Origin: Myxococcota bacterium
Lineage (GTDB): Bacteria; Myxococcota_A; Bradymonadia; UBA4248
Direction of reading: 5' to 3'
Length of the DNA stretch: 64,000 nt
Assembly: GCA_045643185.1 (NCBI GenBank)
Contig: JAZUKH010000280.1
Coordinates: 1,448 to 65,447, forward strand
The first letter of the stretch is position 1. Every line of letters starts with the position of its first letter. The notes beneath the pieces are model-generated. The model worked only from the letters and a program-made list of their open reading frames with translations, ran no database searches and was not told where the DNA came from. Positions 9,764 to 63,574 of this stretch are shown here, piece after piece. The position numbers and the translations under genes are program-made.

Positions 9764-10495
9764 CTACTTGAGCAATTGGAACATATTACGGAGCGCGTCA
9801 GCCGGTTCGGCATCGTACGTTTTATCAGCCTGAGCACACAGCGTGAACGCCAGAAGCTTGTGCGCCGAGGCATACACGAAAAGCGACGCAGTACAATCAC
9901 GATCGACCTCTTTTTCTTTGCCCACAAGGCTGGCGCTGTATTCCTCAACAAGGTTCTTGCACTTTTTGCCGGGCTTTGGATCCATGCAAAGATCGCGCTT
10001 CTGCACATTGTCCGTTGTGATTTTAGGCATGGCCAGCGTTTCACCCAGACTGTTCAAAACATTGATCGCAACATCCGATGCCTTGAGTTCAGCCGGGAAG
10101 TCAAGAATATCGACCGTGATCGTGGCAGGATTCTTGTCATCGGGTTCCACGGCGACCAGACGCTTCGCAGACGGCGTGATCTGCCAACGAAACGGAAAGG
10201 TCAACTCGCCAAACTCATCCGAGGTGTATGGCTGGTTGAGGGTGAGCGACGTCACCTTGACACCGACTTTAGGCGCAGGTGCCACTGGCGCTTCTTCCGG
10301 CGCTAGTTCAGCAACTTTTTCAGCCTGCTTCTGCTTTTCAGCCTGCTTTTGCTTTTCAGCCTGCTTCTGCTTTTCAGCATTTATGAGTAGCCCAAACTCC
10401 TCAGGCGGGACAGCAATAGCATCCGCCCAAACCAATGACGGCATCACGCAAAGGCCGACCCCAAGCCATAATCCCATCCAGATTCGTCGTTTCAT
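9764..10495 (-). CDS. hypothetical secreted protein with (AEKQKQ)n repeat
   Basis: Signal peptide 'MKRRIWMGLWLGVGLCVMPSLVWA'. An 18-bp tandem repeat (10312-10384) encodes AEKQKQAEKQKQAEKQKQ. Confidence 0.5.
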   Translation of the reverse strand: MKRRIWMGLWLGVGLCVMPSLVWADAIAVPPEEFGLLINAEKQKQAEKQKQAEKQKQAEKVAELAPEEAPVAPAPKVGVKVTSLTLNQPYTSDEFGELTFPFRWQITPSAKRLVAVEPDDKNPATITVDILDFPAELKASDVAINVLNSLGETLAMPKITTDNVQKRDLCMDPKPGKKCKNLVEEYSASLVGKEKEVDRDCTASLFVYASAHKLLAFTLCAQADKTYDAEPADALRNMFQLLK

Positions 10496-10527: not shown

Positions 10528-10656
10528 AGGGGGAAGTCTCCCCCTACGCGGCTATGGGCGGCGATCCGTTTCCATGCCGATCCGTCGCATGCGACGAATC
10601 GACATAAAAACGTCGCTACGCCCATACGCCGCTACCCCTTCGCCTGGCGGGGCCCA
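10528..10656. repeat. MITE/REP-like intergenic element, copy A
   Basis: Termini GGGGGAAGTCTCCCCCTACGCGGCTAT ... ATACGCCGCTACCCCTTCGCCTGGCGGGGCCC, shared with copies at 35337, 48441 (inverted) and 49678. Confidence 0.7.
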
Positions 10657-10683: not shown

Positions 10684-11469
10684 TCATTCGTGGCAGGCGA
10701 CATTGTCGTAAATCGTCACTTTTTGAAGCACCGACTTGGAAGCCGTGATCTTCTTGATCAGCTCAACATCGTGGCACTGCCCAAATGTCGTGAACATACC
10801 ATGCAATTCAGGCAAATCACGGGCAAGCAGCGCGAACTGGGTCGAGGCAGCCCCGGGGTGTGGCTGGATCATGACGATCGCGCCGGCAACGGGGCCATGT
10901 TCGGCACATCGTTCGTCCTCGATCACAAAATTCGTGCCTTCCGGTCGCGCACTGACAACGGCAAACGCATTTTTGTCGCGCCGGTCAAAGGCAAGCATGT
11001 CGTAATAAGGCGAGTCATGAGAAATACCCTGTCGATCAGTCCAAGCGGGATGCCCCGTCGCCAGTGCCTTAAAGTTGAGCACGGTCAACGGGTGATCATC
11101 CATAAACAGGTCGCAGCACAATGTGCCTTCTGACGTTTCCAGCTTGGCCGAAATGTCATGGTGCCCTGCATAAATGCGATAACCAGGTTTTGGCGTCGGT
11201 ACACTTTCCTCCTCACCCGACGTTTCAGCGATCAACGGGCTTTCCTCATTCGCCACGTCAGCACTCACCCGGTTTTCGCCCCCAACCACACTGTTTTCAT
11301 CGCCATCCTTGGTCGACGAGTCAGTGACCGTCACGTCCTCAGCGATGGCACACACTGGACGCGTCATTACCGCCGCAACAAGCCACACAACGCTCGCCAT
11401 CTGTAGGCACTGAGCTGACAATCTCGATTTTTTCATGCAATCAAACACGCTTATTTCCAACCTGCTCAT
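10684..11469 (-). CDS. cyclophilin-type peptidyl-prolyl cis-trans isomerase-like protein (divergent), exported
   Basis: 'LNFKALATGHP', 'HGPVAGAIVMIQPHPGAASTQFAL' and 'LHGMFTTFGQCHDVELIKKI' align with cyclophilin 'GxLSMAN..PNTNGSQFFI' and 'LDGKHVVFGKV..GMDVVKKI'. Has an N-terminal signal-like region. Confidence 0.5.
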   Translation of the reverse strand: MSRLEISVFDCMKKSRLSAQCLQMASVVWLVAAVMTRPVCAIAEDVTVTDSSTKDGDENSVVGGENRVSADVANEESPLIAETSGEEESVPTPKPGYRIYAGHHDISAKLETSEGTLCCDLFMDDHPLTVLNFKALATGHPAWTDRQGISHDSPYYDMLAFDRRDKNAFAVVSARPEGTNFVIEDERCAEHGPVAGAIVMIQPHPGAASTQFALLARDLPELHGMFTTFGQCHDVELIKKITASKSVLQKVTIYDNVACHE

Positions 11470-11828: not shown

Positions 11829-12815
11829 ATGGGAAAAGCCGACCTTGTTGCCAGAAAATTCATGTCAGACCCCAAGAATTTTGCAGATTCCTTCAATCTA
11901 GCTTTTCAGGTGTATGGTTACAAACGAATGTCCGTAAATGCAAATACACTCAAAGCCCTCGACACCAATCATACCCAATCTATGTTTGGAAAAATACTGG
12001 AACGCTTCTCAGACGTATTCAAAGCAGGACAGCTATTCTATGACAACAAATATTGCTATATGGCACTACTGATCGAGAATCAACACTATGTTCATCCAGG
12101 CATGCCACTCAAGTTGTTGTCATACATCATGCTGGATCTCATTCAACAAGTAAAGGACTACCAAGCTTTACATCCTAACAAAAAGCGAACAAGCGACGAG
12201 TTCCTATCGAATTTTCCAATCGATTTTCAATTAAGACCAATTTTACCGTTGGTCATATATTTTGGGCCACAAGCCTGGACAGCCCCTAAAGACCTCGCTG
12301 ACATGTTTCAATATGTCCCCAGACGCCTGAGATGGTTACTTCCTCACCAAAAATATTTAGTTTTGAGCCCAACAGCAATTAACGACAAACTATTTCAAGA
12401 CAACAAATCCGAATTTTCACTTGCCCTACAAGCCATGAAACACGCTCAAACACGAAGCACGCTGTCTGGTTTCTTCAAAAACAACGATGACTATGCTAAG
12501 GTTTCAAGTAGCCTGGCTGAAATGATTGCGGCCAACGTAAACTGTAATCTCGATAACATTACACTCAAGGAGAGCAATAACATGTACGAGATTTCACATT
12601 TTTGGGATGAATCAGACGAGCGTCTACGCAATGAAGGCTTTAAGCGTGGAGACAAACACGGCTTTAAGCGTGGAGACAAGCACGGCAGAATTGGCATATT
12701 AGTCGATTTGGTCAAAGACGGCCTGTTGACGCAACAAGCAGCAGCAGAACGAGCGAATATGAGCGAAAGCGAATTTTCGAAGCTTTGCCAATCGTCAGTC
12801 AAAACCGAACGCTAA
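11829..12815 (+). CDS. Rpn/YhgA-family (Transposase_31, PD-(D/E)xK) recombination-promoting nuclease
   Basis: N-terminus 'DLVARKFMSDPKNFADSF' resembles 'HDALFKKFLxHPDxARDF'. 'LIENQHYVHPGMPLKLLSYIM' and 'ILPLVIYFGPQ' fit the YhgA core. C-terminal 'GFKRGDKHG' repeats. Gene is AT-rich relative to its neighbours. Confidence 0.55.
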   Translation: MGKADLVARKFMSDPKNFADSFNLAFQVYGYKRMSVNANTLKALDTNHTQSMFGKILERFSDVFKAGQLFYDNKYCYMALLIENQHYVHPGMPLKLLSYIMLDLIQQVKDYQALHPNKKRTSDEFLSNFPIDFQLRPILPLVIYFGPQAWTAPKDLADMFQYVPRRLRWLLPHQKYLVLSPTAINDKLFQDNKSEFSLALQAMKHAQTRSTLSGFFKNNDDYAKVSSSLAEMIAANVNCNLDNITLKESNNMYEISHFWDESDERLRNEGFKRGDKHGFKRGDKHGRIGILVDLVKDGLLTQQAAAERANMSESEFSKLCQSSVKTER

Positions 12816-26532: not shown

Positions 26533-26725
26533 TCATGCGGCGTATTCGCGCACGCGAATAGCCGCATGGCGTCGGGCGTATTCGCAAAGCGAATAGCCCG
26601 CGCTCCCCAAAATATCCCAAATAATCGTCATTTCAGCGTTGCAACGTGTTTTCCGTAGCAACGACGCGAGCCTTAGGCGTTTTCATTCAGCGCAGCTCGC
26701 ATTTCAAACATCCCAAGCACGCGGA

Positions 26726-30955: not shown

Positions 30956-31246
30956 TGAGAACCCCTGTATGAAACAGCGTCTGAAGGACGTGTTGTAAGG
31001 CGTAAGGACATAACATGGTATGAAAAAAGGCCCGCGATGCCGTAAGCCATCACGTTAAACGACCCTGCAAAGCAGGTGGGCCTCGGTATAGAGTCGGAAA
31101 GTATCCTGGACTAGCAGGCGCGCTCGCCGGATCTCTAGGGGATGAGTCCCAATGATTAACGCACAAGGGGTTTAGCATAAATCGGCGTTTCGCGAACACC
31201 GCAGGCTTTACGCGTTTATAACACGAACGAGCTCAATGGGGATAAA

Positions 31247-34059: not shown

Positions 34060-35304
34060 ATGACTTCCAAAGTAATTCGCTGCTCATTCTGTGGCAAAGA
34101 AAAAAAAGATGTTCAGAAATTGATCTATCGCAAAGACTCCCCTGATCAGGGCGTCTGCATCTGCGACGCATGCATCACACTCTGCCGGGAAATTATGGCC
34201 GAAGAACCCCGCCCCGCAGGTGATACCGCCATGCCAACCTCCGCAGATATGCTCCCAACCAAAATCAAAGCCTACCTCGACGAAAATATCGTCGGACAGG
34301 ACCGCGCAAAGATCGCCATGAGCGTCGCGATCTACAACCACTACAAACGTATCGAGAACAAGTCTGACGAAAAAGACGACGTCACACTCTCAAAAGGCAA
34401 TATCCTGATGATCGGACCGACCGGGTGCGGAAAAACTCTCATCGCGCAGACCATCGCAAAACTCCTCAATGTCCCCTTCGCCGTCGCAGATGCTACGACA
34501 CTCACCGAAGCCGGTTACGTCGGCGAAGACGTCGAAAATATCATCAAAAATCTCTGGCTCGCCGCAAACAAAAATATCGAACAAACCGAACGCGGTATCG
34601 TCTGCATCGACGAAATCGATAAGATCGCTACGCGCGGCGCCGGCGGACGCGATGTCGGCGGCGAAGGCGTACAACAGGCCCTCCTCAAAATGATCGAAGC
34701 CGGAACGGTCACCTTCTCACCCGACGCTTCCAAAAATCGACCTGGCATGCAGGATCTCATCCGCGTCAACACCACAAACATCCTCTTCATCTTCACCGGC
34801 GCCTTCACAAAACTCGCCAATATCATCGAAAAACGCGTCGGCGATACCTCCATGGGCTTCACCGCCGTCGCAACAAAAAAAGAATTACAAAACGAGTCCA
34901 AACTCCTCGAACAGGCAACCACACAGGATGTCATCAAATACGGACTCATCCCCGAATTCATGGGCCGTATCCCCATCATCGTCACCCTCGATGAACTCAC
35001 CGAAGACATGCTCCTCGACATCGTCTCAAAACCAAAAAATAGCATCCTTCGTCAGTATGTGCGACTCTTCCAGTTCGAACACGTCCGACTCAACGTCACC
35101 CATGAAGGACAACTCGCCATCGTCCGCGAAGCCATCCGCCGAAAAAGCGGCGCCCGCGGCCTCCGATCCATCTTCGAAGAAGTTATGCTCGACATCATGT
35201 ACGAAATTCCGTCCATGAAAAATCTCGCCGAAGTCATCATCGACGAAGACGTCGTCCTCAAAAAGAAAGAGCCCATCCTCCGCTTCACCGAAGAAGCTTC
35301 CTAG
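34060..35304 (+). CDS. clpX: ATP-dependent Clp protease ATP-binding subunit ClpX
   Basis: N-terminal zinc finger 'CSFCGK...CICDAC', Walker A 'GPTGCGKTLIAQ', 'EAGYVGEDVENII'. Confidence 0.95.
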   Translation: MTSKVIRCSFCGKEKKDVQKLIYRKDSPDQGVCICDACITLCREIMAEEPRPAGDTAMPTSADMLPTKIKAYLDENIVGQDRAKIAMSVAIYNHYKRIENKSDEKDDVTLSKGNILMIGPTGCGKTLIAQTIAKLLNVPFAVADATTLTEAGYVGEDVENIIKNLWLAANKNIEQTERGIVCIDEIDKIATRGAGGRDVGGEGVQQALLKMIEAGTVTFSPDASKNRPGMQDLIRVNTTNILFIFTGAFTKLANIIEKRVGDTSMGFTAVATKKELQNESKLLEQATTQDVIKYGLIPEFMGRIPIIVTLDELTEDMLLDIVSKPKNSILRQYVRLFQFEHVRLNVTHEGQLAIVREAIRRKSGARGLRSIFEEVMLDIMYEIPSMKNLAEVIIDEDVVLKKKEPILRFTEEAS

Positions 35305-35336
35305 TCTTCCATCAGCCTTTTTTTGGGATATGGCAG

Positions 35337-35443
35337 GGGAAAGCCTTCCCCTACGCGGCTATTTTTCACACAAAGGTGCGCAGCTCGCTACGCACCTTTG
35401 TGAAAAAATACGCCGCTACCCCTTCTCGCCTGCGGCGCGCCCC
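35337..35443. repeat. MITE/REP-like intergenic element, copy B
   Basis: GGGGAAAGCCTTCCCCTACGCGGCTAT ... internal palindrome TTTTCACACAAAGGTGCGCAGC/GCTACGCACCTTTGTGAAAAA ... ATACGCCGCTACCCCTTCTCGCCTGCGGCGCGCCC. Confidence 0.65.
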
Positions 35444-35502
35444 CAGCTTGTACGCTTTTCACCACGCCACCCATCACAGATTTATTTGGAGATCTCCAAT
35501 CT

Positions 35503-36429
35503 ATGTCCGACAAAGTTTTTCACTCCGGATTTATTGCGCTCGTGGGTCGCACGAATGCCGGTAAATCCACGCTCGTCAACGCATTGACGGGCGAGCGCGT
35601 CAGCATCACAAGTTCAAAAGCTCAGACGACGCGAAATAAGATCCGTGGCATCGTCAACCGTGACGACGCCCAATTCGTTTTTATCGACACACCAGGTCTG
35701 CACGACTGGCTCAAACGCACACTCAACCAGGTCATGATCCAACAGGCTCTGTCCAGCCTCGGCGACGCCGACACCGTGTTGATGCTCATCGACGCTAACC
35801 ACGCTCTGCAAAAAAATGGCGAGATCGAAGAAATCGAAGCCGGGCTCATTGACGCCCTCAAAAAAGTCAATAAACCCGCTGTCCTCGCCATCAACAAGCT
35901 CGACATGCTCTCTGACCCGGCTAAAGTGCTTCCCATCATCGCCAAATATAGCCAGGCCTATCCGTTCACCGATATCGTCGCTGTCAGTGCCAAAAAACAT
36001 CGTGAACTCGAAACCCTGCTCGACTGCGTCGTCAAAAATCTGCCCGAACAAGAAGCCCTCTATCCAGAAGAACTCTATACCGACCAGTCAGAACGCTTTT
36101 TGGCCGCCGAAACGATTCGAGAAGTCATCTACTATCAGATGAGTAAAGAGCTTCCCTACTCCGCCGTCGTTGAGATCGACGACTTCAAATCGATGCGTGA
36201 TCGCAACCGCATTGAGATCAAAGCTACCATCTACGTCGAACGCGAAAGCCAAAAAGCCATTTTCGTCGGTAAAGCAGGCGCCCAGATCAAATCGCTCGGT
36301 ATCGCTGCTCGCGAAAAACTCGCCAAAGTCCTCGACGCCAACATTCAGCTCGAACTCGTCGTCAAAGTCAAAGCTGAGTGGAGCGAAAACATGAAAGACC
36401 TCCGCGAATTCGGTCTGGCAGACAAGTAA
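35503..36429 (+). CDS. era: GTPase Era
   Basis: 'GFIALVGRTNAGKSTLVNAL' G1 motif, 'DTPG' G3 motif, C-terminal KH region. Confidence 0.9.
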   Translation: MSDKVFHSGFIALVGRTNAGKSTLVNALTGERVSITSSKAQTTRNKIRGIVNRDDAQFVFIDTPGLHDWLKRTLNQVMIQQALSSLGDADTVLMLIDANHALQKNGEIEEIEAGLIDALKKVNKPAVLAINKLDMLSDPAKVLPIIAKYSQAYPFTDIVAVSAKKHRELETLLDCVVKNLPEQEALYPEELYTDQSERFLAAETIREVIYYQMSKELPYSAVVEIDDFKSMRDRNRIEIKATIYVERESQKAIFVGKAGAQIKSLGIAAREKLAKVLDANIQLELVVKVKAEWSENMKDLREFGLADK

Positions 36430-38806: not shown

Positions 38807-41800
38807 CTAACTCAACGACTTAGCAGCTTTTTTCATCTTCTTGTCGCAGAGTTTCAGCACATCGAACATGGAGTTAACGGACTCGACTGCGCTTGGATCA
38901 AGCCCCTGAGCCGCGTTGACGATCTTAACGACCTGATCGGCGTATTGAATGACCGCGTCAAAACGTGTTGACCAAGTCTTGACGAAGTCTTCTGACGCCG
39001 AAGTGCCAGACGAGACGGCAGGATTGTTTTGCGCACTGGCGAGTAAGGAACGGAGAGATTCGATCTGAATCGAGTTCGAACTAAGCGAGGCGTTGGCTTC
39101 GTCACGTTCGGCACGAAGTTGCGCCGATTCGGCTTCGAGAGCCGCCACGCGTTCTTTCGCTTCATCGGCAGCGGCGCGAAGCGCTTCGATATCACCGGCC
39201 GCATTCTGCATTTCAGCAATCTCAGCGCGCAATGCAGAAATTTGGTTACCGGCATCAACCGCTTCGGCACGAAGCTGTTCGAGTTCCGCACCCGTGATCT
39301 CGTTGGCTGACTGAGCCATGTTCAACGAGCTTTGAACTAAGTTAAACTCCTCTTTCGTGGAATCAAGTTCCTCTTTCAAATTTTCAATTTGCGTTTCGAG
39401 GTAAACGTTCTCTTCACGCGCTTTTTCAAGTTCCTGCTTGAGTTCCGCCACTTCGGCACCAGAGTTGGTCGAGCTTTCACTGGCTTCGTTGAGCTTGGAA
39501 CGCAGATCTTGAATTTCGCCAAAGTGACGCGTTTTTTCATCGTTGGATGCTTCGAGTTCGTCGCGCAACGCAACAAGTTCCTGCTGAAGTTTGAGGTTTT
39601 CTGCACAAACTTCACCGAGCTTGTCGTTGAGCGCCATGATCTGGCCATCGAAATCACCTTTAGCTTCGTTCGAGGCATCAAGTTGAGCACGCAACTGAAC
39701 GATCTCTTCCTCATTCGCGTTGGACTCAGCACGCAATTCGTCGAGTTCCGCGTTTTGACGGCTCACACAAGCCTGATATTCATCGACTTGGTCTTGAAGA
39801 GCCTTCGCCTGGTTTTGACTTTCAACGAGTTGTTGCTGCAAGGCTTCGGCATTGGCAGCATTCGCAGCAATGACGTTTTGAGCTTCACCAAGTTGCTGCG
39901 TCAGACTGGCAACAGCCTCGTCCTGACCAGCGACCGAGTTTTGAGCCTGAGCACATTGAGCCTGAACGGTTTCGATGTCCAACTTGAGTTCGGATACCTG
40001 ATCACGCAGCTTTTCGAGTTCTTCATTGGCGGCACCAAGCTCCGATTCGGCTTTGACGCGCGCCACTTCAGCATTATCACATTGTTGAAGTGCAGATGCA
40101 GCCTGTTCGAGTGCCTCGGCGCGCTCAGCTTCAGCCTCAGCCTGAGCTTTTTGGGCACGTTCCAACAGGGCGCTCATTTCTTCCGCCGCACGTTCGGCCA
40201 TGGCCTGAGCTTTTTCGGCCTCCAAGCAATTCTTTTCGACATCGGCCATTTGTTCGCGCAGATCCGACATTTCAGCTTCAGCTGACATGCGCGCATCATC
40301 TGACTCGGTGATGCCGTCATGTACAGCGCGCAACTCATTTTCTGCAGCGACACGAGCTTCCTTGGCCACCGACAGACTTTCTTTCAACGTAGCGACTTCG
40401 TTTTCGAGAACGCCAACTTTTTCAAGAACGTCGTCGCGTTCAGCCATCGTCTTTTCTAGGCACACACCAAGTTTTTCAGCTTCGTGTTCGGCGGCTTTCA
40501 AACGAGTCCTAAGTTGCGTCACCTCAATTTCGAGAGCCGCCGGGTCAGGCACAGCGCCAAGATCAGGCGCACTCATTGTGTAATTGTTTTTCTGAGCATA
40601 GACGAATTGAGGTTCAGACTCTTCCTGAATGCAACTGATCTCGGAACGCGGATCATCGATACAAGTCAGATTGCTAACGGACTGAACGACAGCGGGGATT
40701 TCAACCGATTCACCATTAACTTCTGGATCGTACGCATCACGCGCATCGGCTTCGTTCAGCGCCATCGAGAGCTTATCGACCTGAACGATCTCAGATTCTG
40801 CAGGCACAGCAACGTCGGCAAGGAATTCACCAGGTTGGTCGAGCGCATCCTCAATGGGGCTGATGTCTTCGTCCAACTCATTTTCATCCATATCGTCGTC
40901 GTAGCTGCCAACCGACACGTCATTGAAAGCATCGAAGTCACCGTTCTGATCGTTAACCTCGTCAGACAATGCGGACTCATCAGCATCGTCAATGGCTTCG
41001 ACGATAACGGACTCTCCAACGCGATTGGCCAAGGCATCGCGGTCGTCATCAACAACACTTCGGGCATCGGTCACCGGCAAAGGTGTATCGTAACCAGCGT
41101 CCTGACCCTCGTCTGCCATCGGAACCGCGTCGTCTGCCATCGGAACCGCGTCATCTGCCATCGGAACCGCGTCGTCTGCCATCGGAACCGCGTCGTCTGC
41201 CATCGGAACTGCGTCGTCTGCCATCGGAACTGCGTCGTCTGCCATCGGAACTGCGTCGTCTTCCATCGGAACTGCGTCGTCGTAGTCATGATTTTGGTCA
41301 TACGAAGCTTCCGCCACGTCATTTTGAGGCGCATTCATCGGAGCGTAAGCATCGACGAACTCTTGTTCCTCGCGATAAGCCGGATTTTCGCTACCATGAT
41401 AGCTATTTTCAACGTGGTTATCGGCATAAAGCACATTTTCGGGCATGACCGAATTGCCATAAGCCTCCTCGTTGGCCAAATTAGCGCTGCTATCGTATTC
41501 ATGTGGCACAAAACCGCGTTGCGGATGAGGCACCATGCGACCGCCGCGATCACGCTGATTTCGGCGTGGTGCGGGCGGTACCATATTGTTCACGGGGTTG
41601 CCTCCAGCGGCATTAACGGCCGGCATCTGAGATGACGAAGGCGCCGACACACCACTTGCTTCCCCAGCACGACCGATTGGAACGCTACGCGTCACACGTC
41701 GCGCCGTCGGCGCGATCTGAGCCGACGGCCCAACAGAACTATCTCGTCCAAAGCGGGCACCACGAGCCCTGGCGCCATAACGATCACCAAGCGGCGCAGG

Positions 41801-43201
41801 CGCGATCGGCATTTCTTCATGATCGACCATCTCTTCGACCGGGCCATTGTTCACCGGTTCGTCAGCCTGAATCTGCCCTGACACAGGTTCAGACACCGGT
41901 GCAGACGCATCGACCGGTTCTTCCTGAAATTCTTCGTCGCCTTCCATGGGCGGCATGCTCGCCCCCTCGTTTGAGGCCACTGATTCATAAGGCCCCTCGT
42001 CATTCGTCGCCGCGTCGATCTCATCGAGGCTAAACGCCTGGGTCGGATTAGGCGACGATCCAAACGATTCCTCGCCTCTGTCGTCAAAGCGACGCTCTTC
42101 CAGATCCTGATCTTCAACAGGAGCCGGTTCATTCGCGGCTTCAAAGTTGGCCGGTGCCCCAAGCTCTTCCTGCGGCTCGAACGCCGGCATCGGCGCCTGT
42201 GCAGGCGCAGCCTGCGCCACACGTTCCATTTCCTGATCAAAAGAAGGCTGGTTGATCATCGTCGGACGGAACGTACCGTTACTGTTCGGAATGGGACGCA
42301 TGCCCACATTATTAGGTAACGACGGACTTGGAATTGACGGTTGTTGTGCGCCAATACCACTCATCGGGATCTTGGGCGCACCTGGCATAGACGCAAAACC
42401 AGCAGGTTTGTTCTGAGGCATGCCAACCATCGGCGAACCAGGCATACCAGGCATAGGACTATTCGGCATTGGCCCACGACCACTCGCCAGCGAGCCGCCT
42501 GGCATCTGACCAGGCATGCCAACCATCGGGCCACCAGGCATCTGACCCCCCATCGGGCCACCAGGCATCTGACCACCCATCGGACCACCAGGCATACCAC
42601 TCATCGGACCGCCAGGCATCTGACCGGGCATGCCAACCATCGGACCTTTGGGCGGCATCTGACCAGGCATGCCAACCATCGGACCGCCAGGCATCTGACC
42701 GGGCATACCAACCATCGGCTTGTTCTGAGGCATCTGACCAGGCATCTGACCGGGCATACCAACCATCGGCTTGTTCTGAGGCATCTGACCAGGCATGCCC
42801 ATCGGAGCGCCGGGCATCGGACGTATCATGCCCGGTTGAGGCGCGGCACCAGGTAGTTCAGAAAACTCCAAATTCGATTCACCACAACGCAATACGTCAC
42901 CAGGACGAATCTCAAAAGGTTCCATCGGCTTGATGCGCATATTGTTCACATAACAACCGTTCGAGCTGTTATTGTCGATAAAATAATACCGACCGTTCTG
43001 GAAAACGACTTTAGCGTGAAATCGTGAAACAGCCTTCGTCATGATCCTCAGCATGTTACCTTCGTTGCGACCTATGGTCACTTCCGGCTGCTGCGCATTG
43101 ACATCGGCATAAAAAGACTGAAAATTCTGATCCCTATAGACAATTCGCGCCACGATGCATCTCCTTAAACGGATTTTTAGGCCCTCCCTTAGGGCATACA
43201 T
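38807..43201 (-). CDS. giant FHA-domain protein with Pro/Gly/Met-rich repeats, (DDAVPMA)8 repeat and about 650-aa coiled-coil C-terminus
   Basis: N-terminal FHA ('TIGRNEGNMLRIM...FIDNNSSNGCYVNN'). 'MPGQMPGGPMVGMPGQ' repeats. Eight copies of 'DDAVPMA'. Heptad-rich SMC/myosin-like tail. Confidence 0.75.
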   Translation of the reverse strand: MYALREGLKIRLRRCIVARIVYRDQNFQSFYADVNAQQPEVTIGRNEGNMLRIMTKAVSRFHAKVVFQNGRYYFIDNNSSNGCYVNNMRIKPMEPFEIRPGDVLRCGESNLEFSELPGAAPQPGMIRPMPGAPMGMPGQMPQNKPMVGMPGQMPGQMPQNKPMVGMPGQMPGGPMVGMPGQMPPKGPMVGMPGQMPGGPMSGMPGGPMGGQMPGGPMGGQMPGGPMVGMPGQMPGGSLASGRGPMPNSPMPGMPGSPMVGMPQNKPAGFASMPGAPKIPMSGIGAQQPSIPSPSLPNNVGMRPIPNSNGTFRPTMINQPSFDQEMERVAQAAPAQAPMPAFEPQEELGAPANFEAANEPAPVEDQDLEERRFDDRGEESFGSSPNPTQAFSLDEIDAATNDEGPYESVASNEGASMPPMEGDEEFQEEPVDASAPVSEPVSGQIQADEPVNNGPVEEMVDHEEMPIAPAPLGDRYGARARGARFGRDSSVGPSAQIAPTARRVTRSVPIGRAGEASGVSAPSSSQMPAVNAAGGNPVNNMVPPAPRRNQRDRGGRMVPHPQRGFVPHEYDSSANLANEEAYGNSVMPENVLYADNHVENSYHGSENPAYREEQEFVDAYAPMNAPQNDVAEASYDQNHDYDDAVPMEDDAVPMADDAVPMADDAVPMADDAVPMADDAVPMADDAVPMADDAVPMADEGQDAGYDTPLPVTDARSVVDDDRDALANRVGESVIVEAIDDADESALSDEVNDQNGDFDAFNDVSVGSYDDDMDENELDEDISPIEDALDQPGEFLADVAVPAESEIVQVDKLSMALNEADARDAYDPEVNGESVEIPAVVQSVSNLTCIDDPRSEISCIQEESEPQFVYAQKNNYTMSAPDLGAVPDPAALEIEVTQLRTRLKAAEHEAEKLGVCLEKTMAERDDVLEKVGVLENEVATLKESLSVAKEARVAAENELRAVHDGITESDDARMSAEAEMSDLREQMADVEKNCLEAEKAQAMAERAAEEMSALLERAQKAQAEAEAERAEALEQAASALQQCDNAEVARVKAESELGAANEELEKLRDQVSELKLDIETVQAQCAQAQNSVAGQDEAVASLTQQLGEAQNVIAANAANAEALQQQLVESQNQAKALQDQVDEYQACVSRQNAELDELRAESNANEEEIVQLRAQLDASNEAKGDFDGQIMALNDKLGEVCAENLKLQQELVALRDELEASNDEKTRHFGEIQDLRSKLNEASESSTNSGAEVAELKQELEKAREENVYLETQIENLKEELDSTKEEFNLVQSSLNMAQSANEITGAELEQLRAEAVDAGNQISALRAEIAEMQNAAGDIEALRAAADEAKERVAALEAESAQLRAERDEANASLSSNSIQIESLRSLLASAQNNPAVSSGTSASEDFVKTWSTRFDAVIQYADQVVKIVNAAQGLDPSAVESVNSMFDVLKLCDKKMKKAAKSLS
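41108..41282. repeat. 21-bp tandem repeat (about 8.5 copies) encoding (DDAVPMA)n
   Basis: GTCTGCCATCGGAACCGCGTC units with minor variants (C/T, G/A) seen directly in the sequence. Confidence 0.85.
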
Positions 43202-43709: not shown

Positions 43710-44642
43710 TTATTCTTCATCTTGGCTTTCTTCATTGTCAGAAGAACCAATACATGTTTCTAAACTGTTGAGAAGTGAGGCACAAGCGACTTCGGAGTCA
43801 CTCTCATGATCCCATTCACAAATATAAAATGAGCGCATAGCGTCTTTGCAGTCATCTGTTTGTTCGCTGATGATACTGTTTACCTCCGCGATACAATCTG
43901 AAATAGGCTCGTCATTATCGGGGTTATCATCATTGATGTGTTTTTCATATTCTCTAACGCAAAATTCATTCGCTTTAATACCATAATACAAATCGAGGTA
44001 TTTTGTAGCGAGACAAAGATTTTTGTCATCAGAAGCTGACTTGCATGCTGTATCACGTTCTGATGCAGATTTATCTTTGTTTTCATAATTACATTTAACG
44101 GAGGCTTCGAGTTTGTCTTTGCAATCCGCAGCTTTTTGAATAAGATTTTGAGTATCATTAATGCACGAAGCCTGAGTTGCAGTATCATTATTGATCGCTT
44201 TGCAATAATCCGTTGTCATATCTTCAACGGACTTTTCAGCAGGTTTATCCGCGCATTTATTATCTGCGCCGCAATACGTGCTCTTGCATTCATCGCCATT
44301 GGCGCAATCGGCACCGTTGTCATTTTTGCTGTCGGCTGCTGGTTTATCCGCGCATTTTTTATTATCACCGCAATACGCGCTCTTGCATTCATCGCCATTG
44401 GCGCAATCAGCACCATTATCTTTTTTGCTGTCGGCTGCTGGTTTATCCGCGCATTTATTATCTGCGCCGCAGTATTCGCTTAAGCATTCATCGGCATTTA
44501 CGCAATCAGCACCGTTGCTCTTTCTGTCATCGTCACTATCGCTATCACACGCCGTGAAACCGAGGGATAATAAACTTACAAAACCCACCATTGTCACTAA
44601 TTTACGCATCAATTCTCTCCTATAAAAATCATATAAAAACAC
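43710..44642 (-). CDS. Cys-rich repeat lipoprotein (AT-rich, likely acquired)
   Basis: Lipobox 'LGFTACDSD'. Three copies of 'NGADCANGDECKSxYCGxxNKCADKPAADSK'. Lower GC than the flanks. Confidence 0.6.
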   Translation of the reverse strand: MFLYDFYRRELMRKLVTMVGFVSLLSLGFTACDSDSDDDRKSNGADCVNADECLSEYCGADNKCADKPAADSKKDNGADCANGDECKSAYCGDNKKCADKPAADSKNDNGADCANGDECKSTYCGADNKCADKPAEKSVEDMTTDYCKAINNDTATQASCINDTQNLIQKAADCKDKLEASVKCNYENKDKSASERDTACKSASDDKNLCLATKYLDLYYGIKANEFCVREYEKHINDDNPDNDEPISDCIAEVNSIISEQTDDCKDAMRSFYICEWDHESDSEVACASLLNSLETCIGSSDNEESQDEE

Positions 44643-48440: not shown

Positions 48441-48500
48441 GAGGGGGTAGCGGCGTATTTCGCAACGCGAAATAGCCGCGTAGGGGGAGACTTCCCCCTC
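48441..48500. repeat. MITE/REP-like element, short copy C (inverted orientation)
   Basis: Reverse complement is GAGGGGGAAGTCTCCCCCTACGCGGCTAT-TTCGCGTTGCGAA-ATACGCCGCTACCCCCTC, the same termini as copies A, B and D with a minimal palindromic core. Confidence 0.65.
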
Positions 48501-48572
48501 CCAAAGAAAATGTATAATTTTTATTGACAATGAATGTTTATGCGCGTAAAAGTTGCGCCCGTTCGAACGGAC

Positions 48573-48646
48573 CGGAGCATAGCGCAGCCTGGTAGCGCGC
48601 TTGCATGGGGTGCAAGAGGTCGCAGGTTCAAATCCTGTTGCTCCGA
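48573..48646 (+). tRNA. tRNA-Pro (anticodon GGG)
   Basis: Cloverleaf folds: acceptor CGGAGCA/TGCTCCG, D-arm GCGC-AGCCTGGTA-GCGC, anticodon arm CTTGC-ATGGGGT-GCAAG (G37), T-arm GCAGG-TTCAAAT-CCTGT, discriminator A. Confidence 0.85.
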
Positions 48647-48668
48647 TTTCCAACGAACGCACCGTCAC

Positions 48669-48742
48669 CGGAGCATAGCGCAGCCTGGTAGCGCGCTTGC
48701 ATGGGGTGCAAGAGGTCGCAGGTTCAAATCCTGTTGCTCCGA
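48669..48742 (+). tRNA. tRNA-Pro (anticodon GGG), identical tandem copy
   Basis: Exact duplicate of the first tRNA, 22 bp downstream. Followed by the terminator GCCCATCGCAAGATGGGCTTTTTTTT at 48779-48806. Confidence 0.85.
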
Positions 48743-48778
48743 TTTGTTTCATAAACGTCAGCCCAGCTGGTGTTGGAA

Positions 48779-48806
48779 GCCCATCGCAAGATGGGCTTTT
48801 TTTTTG
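48779..48806 (+). terminator. rho-independent terminator after tRNA-Pro pair
   Basis: GCCCATC-GCAA-GATGGGC followed by T8. Confidence 0.7.
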
Positions 48807-48910
48807 CCGTGTGATCGCACCGAAAAAGGGCGAGTTTTAAGCCTCAAATGATTGCCTTCGGTCGCTGCTTGGCGTTATAATGGCGCGCCCGTTTTGTTTG
48901 GAGAGGCAGC

Positions 48911-49645
48911 ATGAAAATCGGTATTTTTTCGGACATTCACAGCAACTTAAACGCCCTAAAGGTCGTTCTGGACTTCTACCGCGACAATCCATGCGATGAA
49001 TATCTCTGCCTGGGTGACGTGGTCGGCTATGGGCCTCAACCCGATGAATGCTGTGACCTCGTCAAGAATTTTGCACGCCTCACCATTCTCGGCAATCACG
49101 ACGCCGCCGTCTGCGGACGCATGAACTACGAGTATTACTACGATGCCGCTCGCAACGTTCTCGATTACCATGCCCGCATCATCTCGCCCGATAACATGAC
49201 CTGGCTCTCCAATCTGCCCTACAAATTCGATCATGAGGCCGGATTTACGATCTGCCACGGTTCCCCCATCAATCCCGAAGAATTCAACTACGTTTTTTAC
49301 CTCGAACAGGCCATCCAGCTCCTTCCCTTTTACAATGAGCTCGCGCCGGTCACCTTTATCGGTCATTCCCATCTGACCAAATCCTTTGCCCTCACCCCCA
49401 CCGAGGCAACCGATATCACCGGAAACACGCTGCATTTCGAGGATGATAAAAAATACTTCGTCACCGTCGGCTCCGTCGGCCAGCCGCGCGACTATGACAA
49501 CCGCGCCTGTTGCACCATTTATGACACGGAAACCAAGACGCTGACGTATTATCGTCTTAACTACGATATCGAAGACACCGTCAAAAAACTCTTCGCAACC
49601 GAGATCACCTATAACTTCGGAAAACGCCTGTATCTCGGCATATAA
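48911..49645 (+). CDS. metallophosphoesterase (calcineurin-like, YfcE-type)
   Basis: 'IGIFSDIHSNLNAL', 'LCLGDVVGYGP', 'ILGNHD' are MPP motifs I-III. Confidence 0.8.
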   Translation: MKIGIFSDIHSNLNALKVVLDFYRDNPCDEYLCLGDVVGYGPQPDECCDLVKNFARLTILGNHDAAVCGRMNYEYYYDAARNVLDYHARIISPDNMTWLSNLPYKFDHEAGFTICHGSPINPEEFNYVFYLEQAIQLLPFYNELAPVTFIGHSHLTKSFALTPTEATDITGNTLHFEDDKKYFVTVGSVGQPRDYDNRACCTIYDTETKTLTYYRLNYDIEDTVKKLFATEITYNFGKRLYLGI

Positions 49646-49677
49646 GTCGGTTTTTCGATACAAGCTCGTGGGATCGT

Positions 49678-49849
49678 GAGGGGGAAGTCTCCCCCTACGC
49701 GGCTATTTGGAATTTCTGTAGTAGACCACGCGTCAGAGACGTGTAGACCACGCGTCAGAGACGTGTAGACCACGCGTCAGAGACGTGTAGACCACGCGTC
49801 TCTACAGAAATACCAAATACGCCGCTACCCCTTCGCCTGGCAGGGGCCC
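49678..49849. repeat. MITE/REP-like element, copy D, carrying an internal 22-bp tandem array
   Basis: Same termini as A, B and C. Core is TTGGAATTTCTGTAG + (TAGACCACGCGTCAGAGACGTG)x3 + TAGACCACGCGTCTCTACAGAAATACCAA. Confidence 0.7.
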
Positions 49850-49854
49850 AGGAT

Positions 49855-62894: not shown

Positions 62895-63123
62895 ATTTCC
62901 TCCTATCACAAACAAAATTGTTTGTGCTCGTTTCGGATCCGCGCCCCCTATGGGCGCTATATACACAAATACACTATATTATATGCAATGCACGCTTCAA
63001 CTTCAACGACTAAGCACGCATTTTGACCATGGTTAGCCCAATTGCCTATTATTTTAGGCGCGGCTATTTCATACGCCGCGCCCGCGTCGCTTCTCCCTCG
63101 CTTGAGCCGCCCGTACCGGACGG

Positions 63124-63270
63124 CTCTACGCTCGGTCAATACGCGACGCGTTTTTTATTTACTCTACGCTCGGTCAATACGCGACGCGTTTTTTATTTAC
63201 TCTACGCTCGGTCAATACGCGACGCGTTTTTTATTTACTCTACGCTCGGTCAATACGTGACGCGTTGTCA
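63124..63270. repeat. 38-bp direct tandem repeat x4 (CTCTACGCTCGGTCAATACGCGACGCGTTTTTTATTTA)
   Basis: Seen directly in the intergenic region upstream of the giant gene. Confidence 0.85.
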
Positions 63271-63276
63271 TTTGAA

Positions 63277-63440
63277 AGCGAAGGCGTATCGGCAAAGCCG
63301 ATAGCCGAAGCCGCGCGCCGTATTTGCGTAAGCAAATAGGCGCACGAAAAAAAATAATAAAGCGAAGGCGTATCGGCAAAGCCGATAGCCGAAGCTGCGC
63401 GCCGTATTTGCGTGAGCAAATAGGCGCACGAAAAAATATT
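63277..63440. repeat. about 84-bp direct repeat x2 containing REP-like palindromes (TATCGGCAAAGCCGATA; CGCCGTATTTGCG-AAGC-AAATAGGCG)
   Basis: AAAGCGAAGGCGTATCGGCAAAGCCGATAGCCGAAGC[C/T]GCGCGCCGTATTTGCGT[A/G]AGCAAATAGGCGCACGAAAAAA occurs twice. Confidence 0.8.
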
Positions 63441-63574
63441 AATAAATAATAATTTTTATCAAAGCATGACAATATGTTTATTTTTCAATGACATACACAG
63501 AGTACAAAAAAAGGCCGCACGGATTAGGTGCGGCCTTGAGGCTCGGAGCTAAGCCCCGAGATCAGAATGAACGG

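What the first reader, a model, noticed from the sequence alone, without database searches (positions are those of the whole stretch)
10528..10656. New MITE/REP-like intergenic element family with conserved termini (copies at 10528, 35337, 48441, 49678)
Four intergenic loci share the 5' end GGGGGAAGTCTCCCCCTACGCGGCTAT and the 3' end ATACGCCGCTACCCCTTCGCCTGGCGGGGCCC, in both orientations, around variable palindromic cores. The cores range from 13 bp (TTCGCGTTGCGAA) to more than 110 bp, including a 22-bp tandem array in copy D. This is the structure expected of a non-autonomous mobile element or REP-like family. I do not recognise the sequence.
Basis: seen in the sequence. Interest (0 to 1): 0.6.

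Follow-up and report, generated by a model that had tools for sequence, protein, structure and literature searches.

The report
REP-like hairpin repeat family, gut Myxococcota
The four loci are real copies of a dispersed, hairpin-forming intergenic repeat of the REP/BIME kind, found in an uncultured gut lineage of Myxococcota and probably handled by a small single-strand DNA transposase; it is an undescribed family of a well-known kind of bacterial repeat.

Summary
Four copies (10529-10655 +, 35336-35444 +, 48441-48498 -, 49680-49849 +) share the layout: 16-nt hairpin H1, CTAC, GCGGC-TAT, palindromic core, ATA-C-GCCGC, TACCCC. Cores are 13, 45, 68 and 110 nt. Copy D holds a 22-nt x3.6 array.

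The family is large. The copies belong to a wider lineage-specific hairpin class: GC stem, TAT, palindromic apex, ATA, bulged C, stem. The window has 9 of these against 0.1 expected.

Features fit REP/BIME elements:
- GTA(G) lies before both hairpins on the reverse strand.
- There is an invariant one-base bulge.
- Stems pair almost only by Watson-Crick pairs, with compensatory changes.
- There is no orientation bias, no target-site duplication, no terminal inverted repeats and no Rfam match.
- Content at orthologous sites turns over between species.

Two Y1 (IS200/RAYT-type) transposase genes in related genomes are each followed by hairpins of this class. The RAYT flanks share no 16-mer with the dispersed copies, and no filled/empty site pair was found. 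Mobilisation is therefore inferred, not shown. Verdict: new member of a known kind; modest interest.

The parts
10529..10655 (+). Copy A. H1 10529-10544, TAC 10545-10547, P2 left GCGGC-TAT 10548-10555, core 10556-10623 (68 nt), ATA-C-GCCGC 10624-10632, TACCCC 10633-10638, tail TTCGCCTGGCGGGGCCC 10639-10655. It lies between a 243-aa gene with no Pfam match (9764-10495, -) and a cyclophilin-type gene (10684-11469, -).
35336..35444 (+). Copy B. Variant H1 GGGGAAAGCCTTCCCC 35336-35351, P2 35355-35416 with a 45-nt core, TACCCC 35417-35422, divergent tail. It lies between clpX (34060-35304) and era (35503-36429).
48441..48498 (-). Copy C. H1 48498-48483, P2 48479-48450 with a 13-nt core, TACCCC 48449-48444. 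Its H1 end lies 26 nt upstream of the TTGACA -35 box that I read upstream of the tandem tRNA-Pro(GGG) genes.
49680..49849 (+). Copy D. H1 49680-49695, P2 49699-49825 with a 110-nt core, tail to 49849. It lies just after the metallophosphoesterase gene (48911-49645) and a weak terminator-like site at 49635-49650.
49721..49800 (+). Tandem array inside the core of copy D: 22-nt unit GTAGACCACGCGTCAGAGACGT x3.6, on the left arm of the hairpin only.
26537..26600 (-). Two tandem hairpins of the same class without H1 (GCGGC-G-TAT-core-ATA-GCCGC and CGGGC-G-TAT-core-ATA-GCCCG as read on the + strand), followed by a C/A-rich tail.
63040..63446 (.). BIME-like cluster upstream of the 3456-aa gene. It holds one forward P2 hairpin (63060-63079), a 38-nt x3.8 array (63124-63266) whose units end in ATACGCGACGC plus a T-run, and an 84-nt x2 array (63275-63446). 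Each unit of the 84-nt array carries two reverse P2 hairpins, including 63315-63343 and 63399-63427.

Best explanation
The four loci are members of a lineage-specific family of REP/BIME-like composite repeats.

Each copy is a head-to-tail pair of hairpins. Read on the reverse strand it is GTA-G[P2 hairpin] followed by GTA-G[H1 hairpin]. P2 has a fixed base (GCGGC / one-base bulge / TAT:ATA) and a free, self-complementary apex.

The likely mechanism is the one established for REPs. The hairpins form in single-stranded DNA. A Y1 HUH transposase (RAYT/TnpA-REP or an IS200-like TnpA) recognises the hairpin base, its bulge and the adjacent GTAG/CTAC. It cuts and rejoins the strand, so units are copied into intergenic DNA without target duplication. 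Insertion seems to favour T-rich tracts such as terminator tails. The apex is not recognised, so it drifts by slippage (one-armed tandem arrays) while remaining a near-perfect Watson-Crick palindrome.

Shown:
- the anatomy;
- the copy number and the lineage restriction;
- pairing and compensatory changes;
- the absence of target-site duplications and of orientation bias;
- turnover of content at orthologous sites;
- Y1 transposase genes flanked by hairpins of the same class.

Inferred:
- that one of these enzymes acts on this family;
- the choice of insertion site;
- how the apex diversifies.

Any effect on neighbouring transcripts is secondary and untested.
For: Family size and range:
36 are true copies, 35 with a matching 3' half close by and one (L038) cut by the end of its locus. 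They fall in 26 contigs of MAG RGIG464, 6 of CAMCLY01, and one each of CAMKRB01, JAZRWH01, JAZRWV01 and RGIG7731.
- The same 18-mer had 0 hits in viral contigs, and copy A had no blastn match in plasmids.

Wider hairpin class (GC stem-TAT-apex-ATA-C-stem'):
- 9 in the window against 0.1 in shuffles.
- 68 in 330 kb of loci from this lineage, against 0 in 337 kb of unrelated RAYT loci.

Conservation and pairing in a trimmed alignment of 45 copies:
- The TAC after H1, the TAC after P2, the TAT/ATA junction and the bulged C are invariant or at least 90% conserved.
- H1 is 96% paired, and 2 of its 6 pairs change on both sides.
- The pairs next to the core carry many double changes.
- The P2 stem occurs as GCGGC/GCCGC, GGCGC/GCGCC, GGTGC/GCACC and GCCGC/GCGGC.

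DNA-level palindromes: stems are almost all Watson-Crick, for example 29 WC pairs and 0 GU, and neither strand is consistently favoured.

Placement:
- No orientation bias relative to genes: 13 forward, 10 reverse, 7 convergent, 5 divergent.
- No target-site duplication: the longest direct repeat between flanks averages 5.04 nt against 4.99 +/- 0.13 in the control.
- The 5' flank is T-rich at -12..-5 and GGG at -4..-2. A run of 5 or more T lies upstream in 21 of 46 copies and downstream in 4 of 46.

Y1 enzymes:
- L008 1120-1635 matches Pfam Y1_Tnp (36 bits, cutoff 23) and NCBIfam REP_Tyr_transpos (67 bits, cutoff 80).
- It sits at one conserved locus in several strains.
- Three hairpins of the form stem-G-TAT-apex-ATA-stem lie within 140 nt of its stop codon.
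- A second, IS200-like Y1 gene fragment (L154 1-207) is followed by two such hairpins.

Turnover upstream of the tRNA-Pro genes:
- A composite is present in the window, in L026 and in L040-45, with three different cores.
- L067 has only two H1-less hairpins there.
- L062 has none.

Published REP definitions fit: a palindrome preceded by GTAG; a stem bulge that the E. coli enzyme needs for activity; clusters, tandem reiteration and nesting within longer palindromes (PMC8266576; PMC3733652).
Against: - No 16-mer from either flank of the RAYT gene recurs in 180 kb of the same MAG, whereas 16-mers of the composite recur 19-26 times. The usual REPtron signature of identical repeats flanking the RAYT is therefore absent. 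The link rests on shared hairpin architecture only.
- The RAYT scores below NCBIfam's equivalog cutoff (67 against 80) and is only 22% identical to E. coli RayT over 86 aa.
- There is no Y1 gene in the 64-kb window. The rest of that genome could not be reached.
- No filled/empty pair between close strains was found for this element. The strains available were 99.99% identical or belonged to different species.
- GTAG is not conserved next to the H1-less hairpins, and it is not enriched inside cores (14 of 46 against 10.1 +/- 2.7).
- Copies with 80-140-nt cores exceed the usual REP size of 20-50 nt.
- The two tagged hairpins are head-to-tail, an arrangement reported as rare among REP dimers (PMC3733652).
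- The complementarity of the P2 outer stem in my catalogue was imposed by the search pattern, so it is not independent evidence.
Confidence: 0.6

Rival explanations
1. The composite is a non-autonomous deletion derivative (PATE-like) of the multi-copy IS200-like element 'ISx' seen in RGIG464. It would be moved by that element's TnpA rather than by the single-copy RAYT.
For: - The right end of ISx (about 254 nt after the Y1 stop codon) occurs in L013, L019, L023 and L034. It is inserted in the strains that carry RAYT variant P0242 (L149, L151; traces at the ends of L150, L152 and L153) where RGIG464 is empty, so the element is active.
- In L034 a composite is joined directly to the distal 156 nt of the ISx right end, at a CTAC|GGGC junction.
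- The ISx right end carries a C5/G5 hairpin followed by CTAC, and the L154 homologue is followed by two hairpins of the P2 class.
Against: - The left end of ISx was never recovered, so no shared terminus has been shown.
- None of the true 18-mer hits led into a transposase gene. 35 have the 3' half within about 150 nt, and the 36th (L038) is cut by the end of its locus.
- The ISx right end is absent from the window and from the loci of other species that nevertheless carry composites.
- Only one fusion (L034) was seen.
Confidence: 0.15
2. The repeats are host-kept DNA or RNA signals: binding sites for a nucleoid or regulatory protein, or mRNA-stabilising or terminating hairpins. They would spread by recombination or arise locally, and no dedicated transposase would be involved.
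For: - The scaffold is identical between genomes whose coding DNA is only about 70% identical.
- A composite sits 26-36 nt upstream of the -35 box I read at the tRNA-Pro promoter in three species.
- Several H1-less hairpins are followed by T-runs and look like intrinsic terminators.
- REPs in other bacteria are reported to have roles in transcription termination, mRNA stabilisation and IHF recruitment (PMC3733652, PMC3479197, PMC8266576).
Against: - The tRNA-Pro site lacks the composite in two other species.
- The intergenic region upstream of yraN is 39 nt in the window and 297 nt with an element in RGIG464.
- Both orientations occur relative to transcription.
- None of the four main hairpins has a T-tail.
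- This reading does not explain how dozens of near-identical copies arise at unrelated loci.
Confidence: 0.15
3. A family of structured small RNAs or cis-regulatory RNAs, with a conserved scaffold and a variable stem.
For: - All copies fold into very stable structures, -35 to -92 kcal/mol.
- There is covariation in H1 and in P2.
- Copy A folds better on the strand of its flanking genes, using G-U pairs.
Against: - No Rfam family matches, either at gathering thresholds or at E<=1; only generic hairpin hits to miRNA models appear.
- Stems are almost purely Watson-Crick, and neither strand is consistently favoured.
- The orientation relative to genes looks random.
- Core sequence and length are not conserved, even at the same locus.
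- No promoter or terminator frames the copies.
Confidence: 0.05
4. A classical MITE derived from a DDE-transposase insertion sequence.
For: Small size, intergenic location, multiple copies, and internal inverted symmetry.
Against: - There is no target-site duplication.
- The two ends are not inverted repeats of each other. The inverted symmetry is internal (P2), and H1 occurs at one end only.
- The flanks are asymmetric.
- No longer element with the same ends appeared among the 36 true hits.
Confidence: 0.05

Closest known systems
GTAG-tagged REP elements and their clusters (BIMEs), associated with RAYT/TnpA-REP (E. coli, Pseudomonas, Stenotrophomonas; PMC8266576, PMC3733652, PMC3116915)
   Same: - Abundant intergenic hairpins.
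- GTA(G) directly 5' of the stem, on the reverse strand here.
- A conserved bulge in the stem, as in the group 2 REPs.
- Subfamilies that differ by complementary stem changes.
- Clusters and tandem reiteration.
- No target-site duplication.
- Lineage-specific sequence.
- A single-copy Y1 transposase gene at a fixed locus, flanked by hairpins.
   Different: - The unit is an obligatory head-to-tail pair (H1 + P2). Head-to-tail dimers are reported as rare (PMC3733652).
- The P2 apex is hypervariable and reaches 142 nt.
- The RAYT flanks share the architecture but no 16-mer with the dispersed copies.
- The RAYT is distant from E. coli RayT and scores below NCBIfam's cutoff.
GTAG-14 REPs of Bradyrhizobium, and REPs nested in longer palindromes in Anabaena, Thermomicrobium and Halothiobacillus (PMC3733652)
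   Same: - Loops bounded by fixed GC-rich termini, with a self-complementary inner region of variable length (up to 27 bp reported).
- REP units sitting inside a larger conserved palindrome.
   Different: - Here the junction is TAT/ATA plus a bulged C.
- The inner region is much longer and often carries one-armed tandem arrays.
- There is no sequence similarity to those families.
BOX elements of Streptococcus pneumoniae (my own knowledge; not checked in the paper library)
   Same: Modular: conserved end modules that pair with each other, around a variable number of tandem middle units.
   Different: - BOX middle units are one fixed 45-nt sequence, not unrelated palindromes.
- No GTAG tag.
- No known Y1 transposase link.
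IS200/IS605 family insertion sequences and their transposase-less derivatives (PATEs) (IS200/IS605 mechanism: PMC8266576 introduction, PMC6006769; PATEs from my own knowledge)
   Same: - Hairpin ends recognised as single-stranded DNA by a Y1 HUH enzyme.
- Strand-specific, with no duplication of the target.
- Insertion next to a short target sequence.
- A composite is fused to the right end of an IS200-like element in L034.
   Different: - No parent IS with the composite's ends was found.
- Copies are far shorter and far more numerous than the IS.

Membership tests
REP / BIME (RAYT-associated) | Palindromic unit preceded by a conserved tetranucleotide, usually GTAG (PMC8266576, PMC3733652) | tested here: met
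   On the reverse strand both hairpins of the composite are preceded by GTA, with the G as the first stem base. The TAC after H1 and the TAC after P2 are 90-100% conserved in 45 copies. This is not conserved beside the H1-less hairpins of the wider class.
REP / BIME (RAYT-associated) | High copy number, mostly intergenic | tested here: met
Four composites plus at least 5 further hairpins in 64 kb. Placement is intergenic by crude ORF calls.
REP / BIME (RAYT-associated) | Imperfect palindrome with a conserved irregularity or bulge in the stem (group 2 REPs; needed for E. coli TnpA-REP activity, PMC8266576) | tested here: met
   The single bulged C between ATA and GCCGC is invariant in 45 of 45 copies. 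My pattern required one base at that position but not which base.
REP / BIME (RAYT-associated) | Unit size of 20-50 nt | tested here: inconclusive
   H1 plus its tag is 19 nt. P2 is 26-37 nt with short cores, but 60-160 nt in most copies.
REP / BIME (RAYT-associated) | A RAYT gene in the same genome, single-copy, at a fixed locus | tested here: inconclusive
   Met for RGIG464 and its strains: L008 1120-1635, Y1_Tnp 36 bits, REP_Tyr_transpos 67 bits against a cutoff of 80, same neighbours in all contigs. There is none in the window. The window's genome is not in the contig index.
REP / BIME (RAYT-associated) | RAYT flanked by the same repeats that are dispersed in the genome (REPtron; abundant flanking 16-mers, PMC5581495) | tested here: not met
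   No flanking 16-mer recurs in 180 kb of RGIG464, while composite 16-mers recur 19-26 times. The 3' flank does carry three hairpins with the same G-TAT...ATA architecture.
REPIN (REP doublet forming a hairpin) | [quoted passage not shown] | tested here: not met
   The two tagged hairpins are head-to-tail and both CTAC motifs are on the same strand. P2 alone is a long hairpin, but its arms are not two REP units.
MITE (DDE-transposon derived) | Terminal inverted repeats at the two ends, and a target-site duplication | tested here: not met
   The ends differ: H1 is at one end only. The longest direct repeat between flanks averages 5.04 nt against 4.99 +/- 0.13 in the control.
IS200/IS605-derived non-autonomous element | Shares both subterminal hairpin ends with a resident Y1-transposase IS | tested here: inconclusive
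   A composite is fused to the right end of ISx in L034, and the ISx right end has a hairpin followed by CTAC. The ISx left end was not recovered because contigs break inside the element.
Intrinsic terminator | GC-rich hairpin followed directly by a T-run on the transcribed strand | tested here: not met
   The scan reports no terminator-like site at H1 or P2 of the four copies. The T-run lies 5' of H1. Some H1-less hairpins elsewhere do have T-tails.
Any Rfam RNA family | Match to a curated covariance model | tested here: not met
   Nothing falls on the element at gathering thresholds. At E<=1 only generic hairpin matches to miRNA models appear, far below their gathering scores.

The most novel reading that the evidence does not exclude
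The invariant scaffold (H1-CTAC-GCGGC-TAT | ATA-C-GCCGC-TAC) might be a docking site. A Y1 HUH enzyme would cut within or beside the TAT/ATA junction and swap self-complementary 'cassettes' in and out of the hairpin apex.

This would account for three observations:
- The orthologous tRNA-Pro site carries three unrelated cores in three species.
- Related palindromes of the GGGACGT/GAGACGT type occur in scaffolds with different outer stems and also outside scaffolds.
- The junction is the most conserved feature of the whole hairpin class.

It would be a hairpin-apex exchange system, loosely comparable to integron attC recombination but without genes.
Probability: 0.08. Interest if true: 0.6.

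Novelty: new member of a known kind. Interest (0 to 1): 0.3.

Why it matters
REP/RAYT systems are documented mainly in Proteobacteria, with scattered cases in other phyla (PMC3733652, PMC5581495). This adds a well-defined, abundant family from an uncultured gut lineage of Myxococcota that is related to Bradymonadales.

Three practical points follow:
- The scaffold is conserved while the apex varies, which makes it a clean substrate for testing what a non-enterobacterial RAYT recognises.
- The repeats coincide with contig breaks and local rearrangements. The tRNA-Pro/metallophosphoesterase block is arranged differently in several species. They are therefore useful markers for, and hazards in, MAG assembly of this lineage.
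- The strict head-to-tail pair and the long one-armed arrays are uncommon among described REPs.

None of this changes the general picture of REP biology.

Tried and rejected
1. A closing helix P0 between the 5' flank (GGGGT) and the 3' ACCCC, giving a three-way junction. Only 50% of cells pair and there is no covariation. Rejected.

2. Cores as GTAG-tagged REPs nested in P2. GTAG/CTAC occurs in 14 of 46 cores against 10.1 +/- 2.7 expected. Not supported, although several arrays have units that start with GTAG.

3. Selection at the RNA level on the transcribed strand, judged from G-U asymmetry. Only copy A shows it. Across about 47 copies there are almost no G-U pairs and no strand trend.

4. 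Terminator function for the four copies. Rejected.

5. Exact look-ups of window proteins, to find the source genome or sister strains. All failed.

6. The search for an empty site.
   - Strains carrying the RAYT are 99.99% identical.
   - The length difference in L065 is an AT-rich scaffold insert containing Ns.
   - The length differences among L040-45 and L062-64 match one or two tRNA-Pro copies.
   - Species-level comparisons are too diverged to give exact boundaries.

7. A metagenome scan for close RAYT relatives returned proteins of at most about 43% identity over full-length matches, from other lineages. These loci served only as a negative control for the hairpin class.

8. The repeats in the RAYT 5' flank (the hairpin GGGCGGGTCTGAGACCCGCCC and 20-nt arrays) as the dispersed cognate REP. 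They occur only at that locus in the sample.

9. Integron attC, retron msd, invertible promoter and CRISPR readings. I considered these from the anatomy and dropped them. The copies lie singly between housekeeping genes; the window ORFs I scanned include no integrase or reverse transcriptase; and a palindromic core is unchanged by inversion.

10. Strain SNPs. In six strains 8 variable columns fall in the roughly 150-nt element and 4 in about 190 nt of flank. The sample is too small to claim elevated mutation.

Full report
**1. Observation**

The four loci are as described. CTACGCGGCTAT occurs exactly four times and ATACGCCGCTACCCC four times, against 0.09 expected for the latter.

Each copy has the same layout:
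- a 16-nt hairpin H1 (GGGGGA-AGTC-TCCCCC);
- TAC;
- a long hairpin P2 whose base is GCGGC-TAT on the left and ATA-C-GCCGC on the right, the C being a one-base bulge;
- a self-complementary core;
- TACCCC.

Cores are 68, 45, 13 and 110 nt. Copy D contains a perfect 22-nt x3.6 tandem array on one arm. All copies fold into stable hairpins on either strand.

Copy B carries a variant H1 (GGGGAAAGCCTTCCCC) that still folds as a hairpin. The 32-nt '3' end' is shared only by A and D; the common part stops at TACCCC.

The neighbours are ordinary genes:
- A lies between a 243-aa gene with no Pfam match and a cyclophilin-type gene.
- B lies between clpX and era.
- C lies upstream of two tRNA-Pro(GGG) genes.
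- D lies after a metallophosphoesterase gene.

**2. Size and range of the family**

36 are true copies; 35 have the matching 3' half nearby and one (L038) is cut by the end of its locus. They fall in 26 contigs of the cattle-colon MAG RGIG464, six contigs of an 'uncultured Myxococcales' MAG, and single contigs of four further MAGs labelled Myxococcota, Myxococcales or Proteobacteria. Three hits in unrelated organisms lack the 3' half and are chance matches.

There was no hit to the 18-mer in viral contigs and none to copy A in plasmids.

Homologues of the window's metallophosphoesterase place the lineage near Bradymonadales: 72% identity to a 'Bradymonadales bacterium' MAG protein and 59% to Lujinxingia. 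They also show a species-rich gut clade from cattle, pig and human samples.

**3. A wider hairpin class**

The P2 base defines a more general motif: GC-rich stem, TAT, palindromic apex, ATA, bulged C, complementary stem.
- The window has 9 exact instances against 0.1 in shuffled sequence. They include two at 26537-26600 and a BIME-like cluster at 63040-63446 with 38-nt and 84-nt tandem arrays.
- Loci of this lineage hold 68 instances in 330 kb. 337 kb of unrelated RAYT loci hold none.
- Outer stems differ between instances and keep their complementarity. The TAT/ATA-C junction is the constant part.

**4. Structure and constraint**

I aligned 45 copies with the core trimmed to 5+5 nt.
- H1 is 96% paired and two of its six pairs change on both sides.
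- Core-proximal pairs show many double changes.
- The two TAC motifs, TAT/ATA and the bulged C are invariant or nearly so.

The complementarity of the P2 outer stem was imposed by my search pattern, so it is not independent evidence. The variants found (GGCGC/GCGCC, GGTGC/GCACC, GCCGC/GCGGC) are nevertheless genuine alternatives.

Stems are almost entirely Watson-Crick and neither strand is favoured. Related cores in RGIG464 differ by symmetric changes in both arms. This pattern points to a DNA-level palindrome rather than an RNA stem evolving through G-U intermediates.

A proposed closing helix between the flanks was not supported.

**5. Context**

- Orientation relative to neighbouring genes is unbiased: 13 forward, 10 reverse, 7 convergent, 5 divergent by crude ORF calls.
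- The 5' flank is T-rich followed by GGG. In some copies that T-run is the tail of a real upstream terminator.
- There is no target-site duplication.
- There are no terminal inverted repeats.
- No terminator-like site coincides with H1 or P2 of the four copies.
- No Rfam family matches.

**6. Orthologous sites**

Upstream of the tRNA-Pro genes, a composite lies in the same orientation 26-36 nt from the -35 box I read there, in three places:
- the window (13-nt core);
- RGIG464 (40-nt core plus a 3' hairpin H3);
- a third species (47-nt core plus an extended H3).

A fourth species has only two H1-less hairpins there, and a fifth has none.

The yraN-upstream spacer is 39 nt in the window. In RGIG464 it is 297 nt and contains a composite.

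The region downstream of the metallophosphoesterase gene is a repeat hot-spot whose content differs in every species.

Repeat-bearing sites therefore persist while their content turns over. I found no exact filled/empty pair between close strains.

**7. Candidate enzymes**

RGIG464 encodes a 171-aa Y1 transposase (L008 1120-1635).
- It matches Pfam Y1_Tnp at 36 bits. Its best NCBIfam match is REP_Tyr_transpos at 67 bits, below the 80-bit cutoff. One source names it RayT.
- It sits at one conserved chromosomal position in all strains recovered, including human-gut ones.
- Within 140 nt of its stop codon are three hairpins of the form stem-G-TAT-apex-ATA-stem. That is the P2 class in reverse orientation, followed by a C/A-rich tail like that after reverse-orientation copies.
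- Its 5' flank carries one-armed arrays of a 20-nt unit that end in a GTAG-tagged hairpin. These arrays vary between nearly identical strains.

Against a simple REPtron: none of the flanking 16-mers recurs in 180 kb of the same MAG.

A second Y1 gene fragment, of IS200-like type (C-terminus ...FAWQEGFGAFSY...YIENQEEHHRK...DERYIF), is followed in L154 by two further P2-class hairpins. In RGIG464 its roughly 254-nt right end is multi-copy. It is inserted in one strain group where RGIG464 is empty, and in L034 it is fused to a composite at a CTAC junction.

The window itself has no Y1 gene. Its only transposase-like ORF is a YhgA/Rpn-type protein at 11829-12815.

**8. Interpretation**

The anatomy, abundance, lineage restriction, lack of duplications and proximity of the hairpin class to Y1 genes match published descriptions of REP/BIME elements.
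- REPs are palindromes preceded by GTAG, and the E. coli enzyme needs a stem bulge (PMC8266576).
- REP families show complementary stem variants, self-complementary variable loops, tandem reiteration and nesting inside longer palindromes (PMC3733652).
- Persistence alongside a single-copy RAYT is described in PMC5581495 and PMC3116915.

I therefore read the finding as a new REP-like family, probably processed as single-stranded hairpins by a Y1 HUH enzyme. That step is inferred.

The unusual points are the fixed head-to-tail pair, the very long and variable apex with one-armed arrays, and the lack of sequence identity between the RAYT flanks and the dispersed copies.

The rivals remain possible at lower weight: an ISx-derived element, host-kept binding or RNA signals, an sRNA family, and a DDE-type MITE.

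**9. Verdict**

The REP-like interpretation is supported and the MITE interpretation is not. This is a new member of a known kind, of modest interest.

Noticed in passing
window 63040-63446: A dense repeat cluster lies directly upstream of a 3456-aa ORF (52596-62966, -). It has a 38-nt x3.8 array whose units end in ATACGCGACGC plus a T-run (terminator-like), and an 84-nt x2 array that carries pairs of TAT/ATA hairpins followed by A-runs.
   Followed up: partly
window 11829-12815 (+): A 328-aa ORF with Pfam Transposase_31 (YhgA-like/Rpn nuclease family, 38.7 bits) lies 1.2 kb from copy A. I found no link to the repeats.
   Followed up: partly
window 48573-48646 and 48669-48742; L040 vs L041; L062 vs L064: tRNA-Pro(GGG) is tandemly duplicated in the window as a 96-nt unit with 100% matches. 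In one related species (L040 vs L041) strains with identical neighbouring proteins carry one or two copies. In another (L062 vs L064) the spacer differs by the same 95 nt, but I did not inspect that sequence.
   Followed up: partly
L013 1-143, L019 138-425, L023 6361-6613, L034 1626-1781, L149 12671-12807 (empty site at L059 ~3790): This is the multi-copy right end of an IS200-like element ('ISx'). It begins after a Y1 transposase stop codon and ends ...GAGAATCCAGG. It is present in one strain group and absent at the same site in RGIG464. Contigs break inside it, so no full copy was recovered.
   Followed up: partly
L058 1793-2582, L059 543-1119, L149 9477-10000: The 5' flank of the RAYT gene is filled with one-armed tandem arrays of 20-nt units (GAGCTRTAGGGCGGGTCTGA, TATGGCTGGGCTTAGAGC) that end in the hairpin GGGCGGGTC-TGA-GACCCGCCC. 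Unit number differs between strains that are 99.99% identical elsewhere. Some of this may be an assembly artefact, because Ns are present.
   Followed up: partly
window 48441-49850 compared with L040, L062, L067: The block made of the tRNA-Pro genes and the metallophosphoesterase gene is inverted or reordered between species, while the outer genes keep their order. In the window the block is bracketed by copies C and D in inverted orientation.
   Followed up: partly
L040 3375-3430: Three perfect DnaA-box sequences (TTATCCACA twice, TGTGGATAA once) lie within about 50 nt upstream of the metallophosphoesterase gene in one related species.
   Followed up: no
window 31025-31210 (-): 6S RNA gene (Rfam RF00013, 51.8 bits).
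   Followed up: no
window 41109-41281, 42519-42796, 44242-44517, 53683-54662: In-frame tandem repeats (21-nt x8.2; 27-75-nt units; 99-nt x2.8; 105-213-nt units) lie inside large ORFs, including the 1464-aa and 3456-aa proteins.
   Followed up: no
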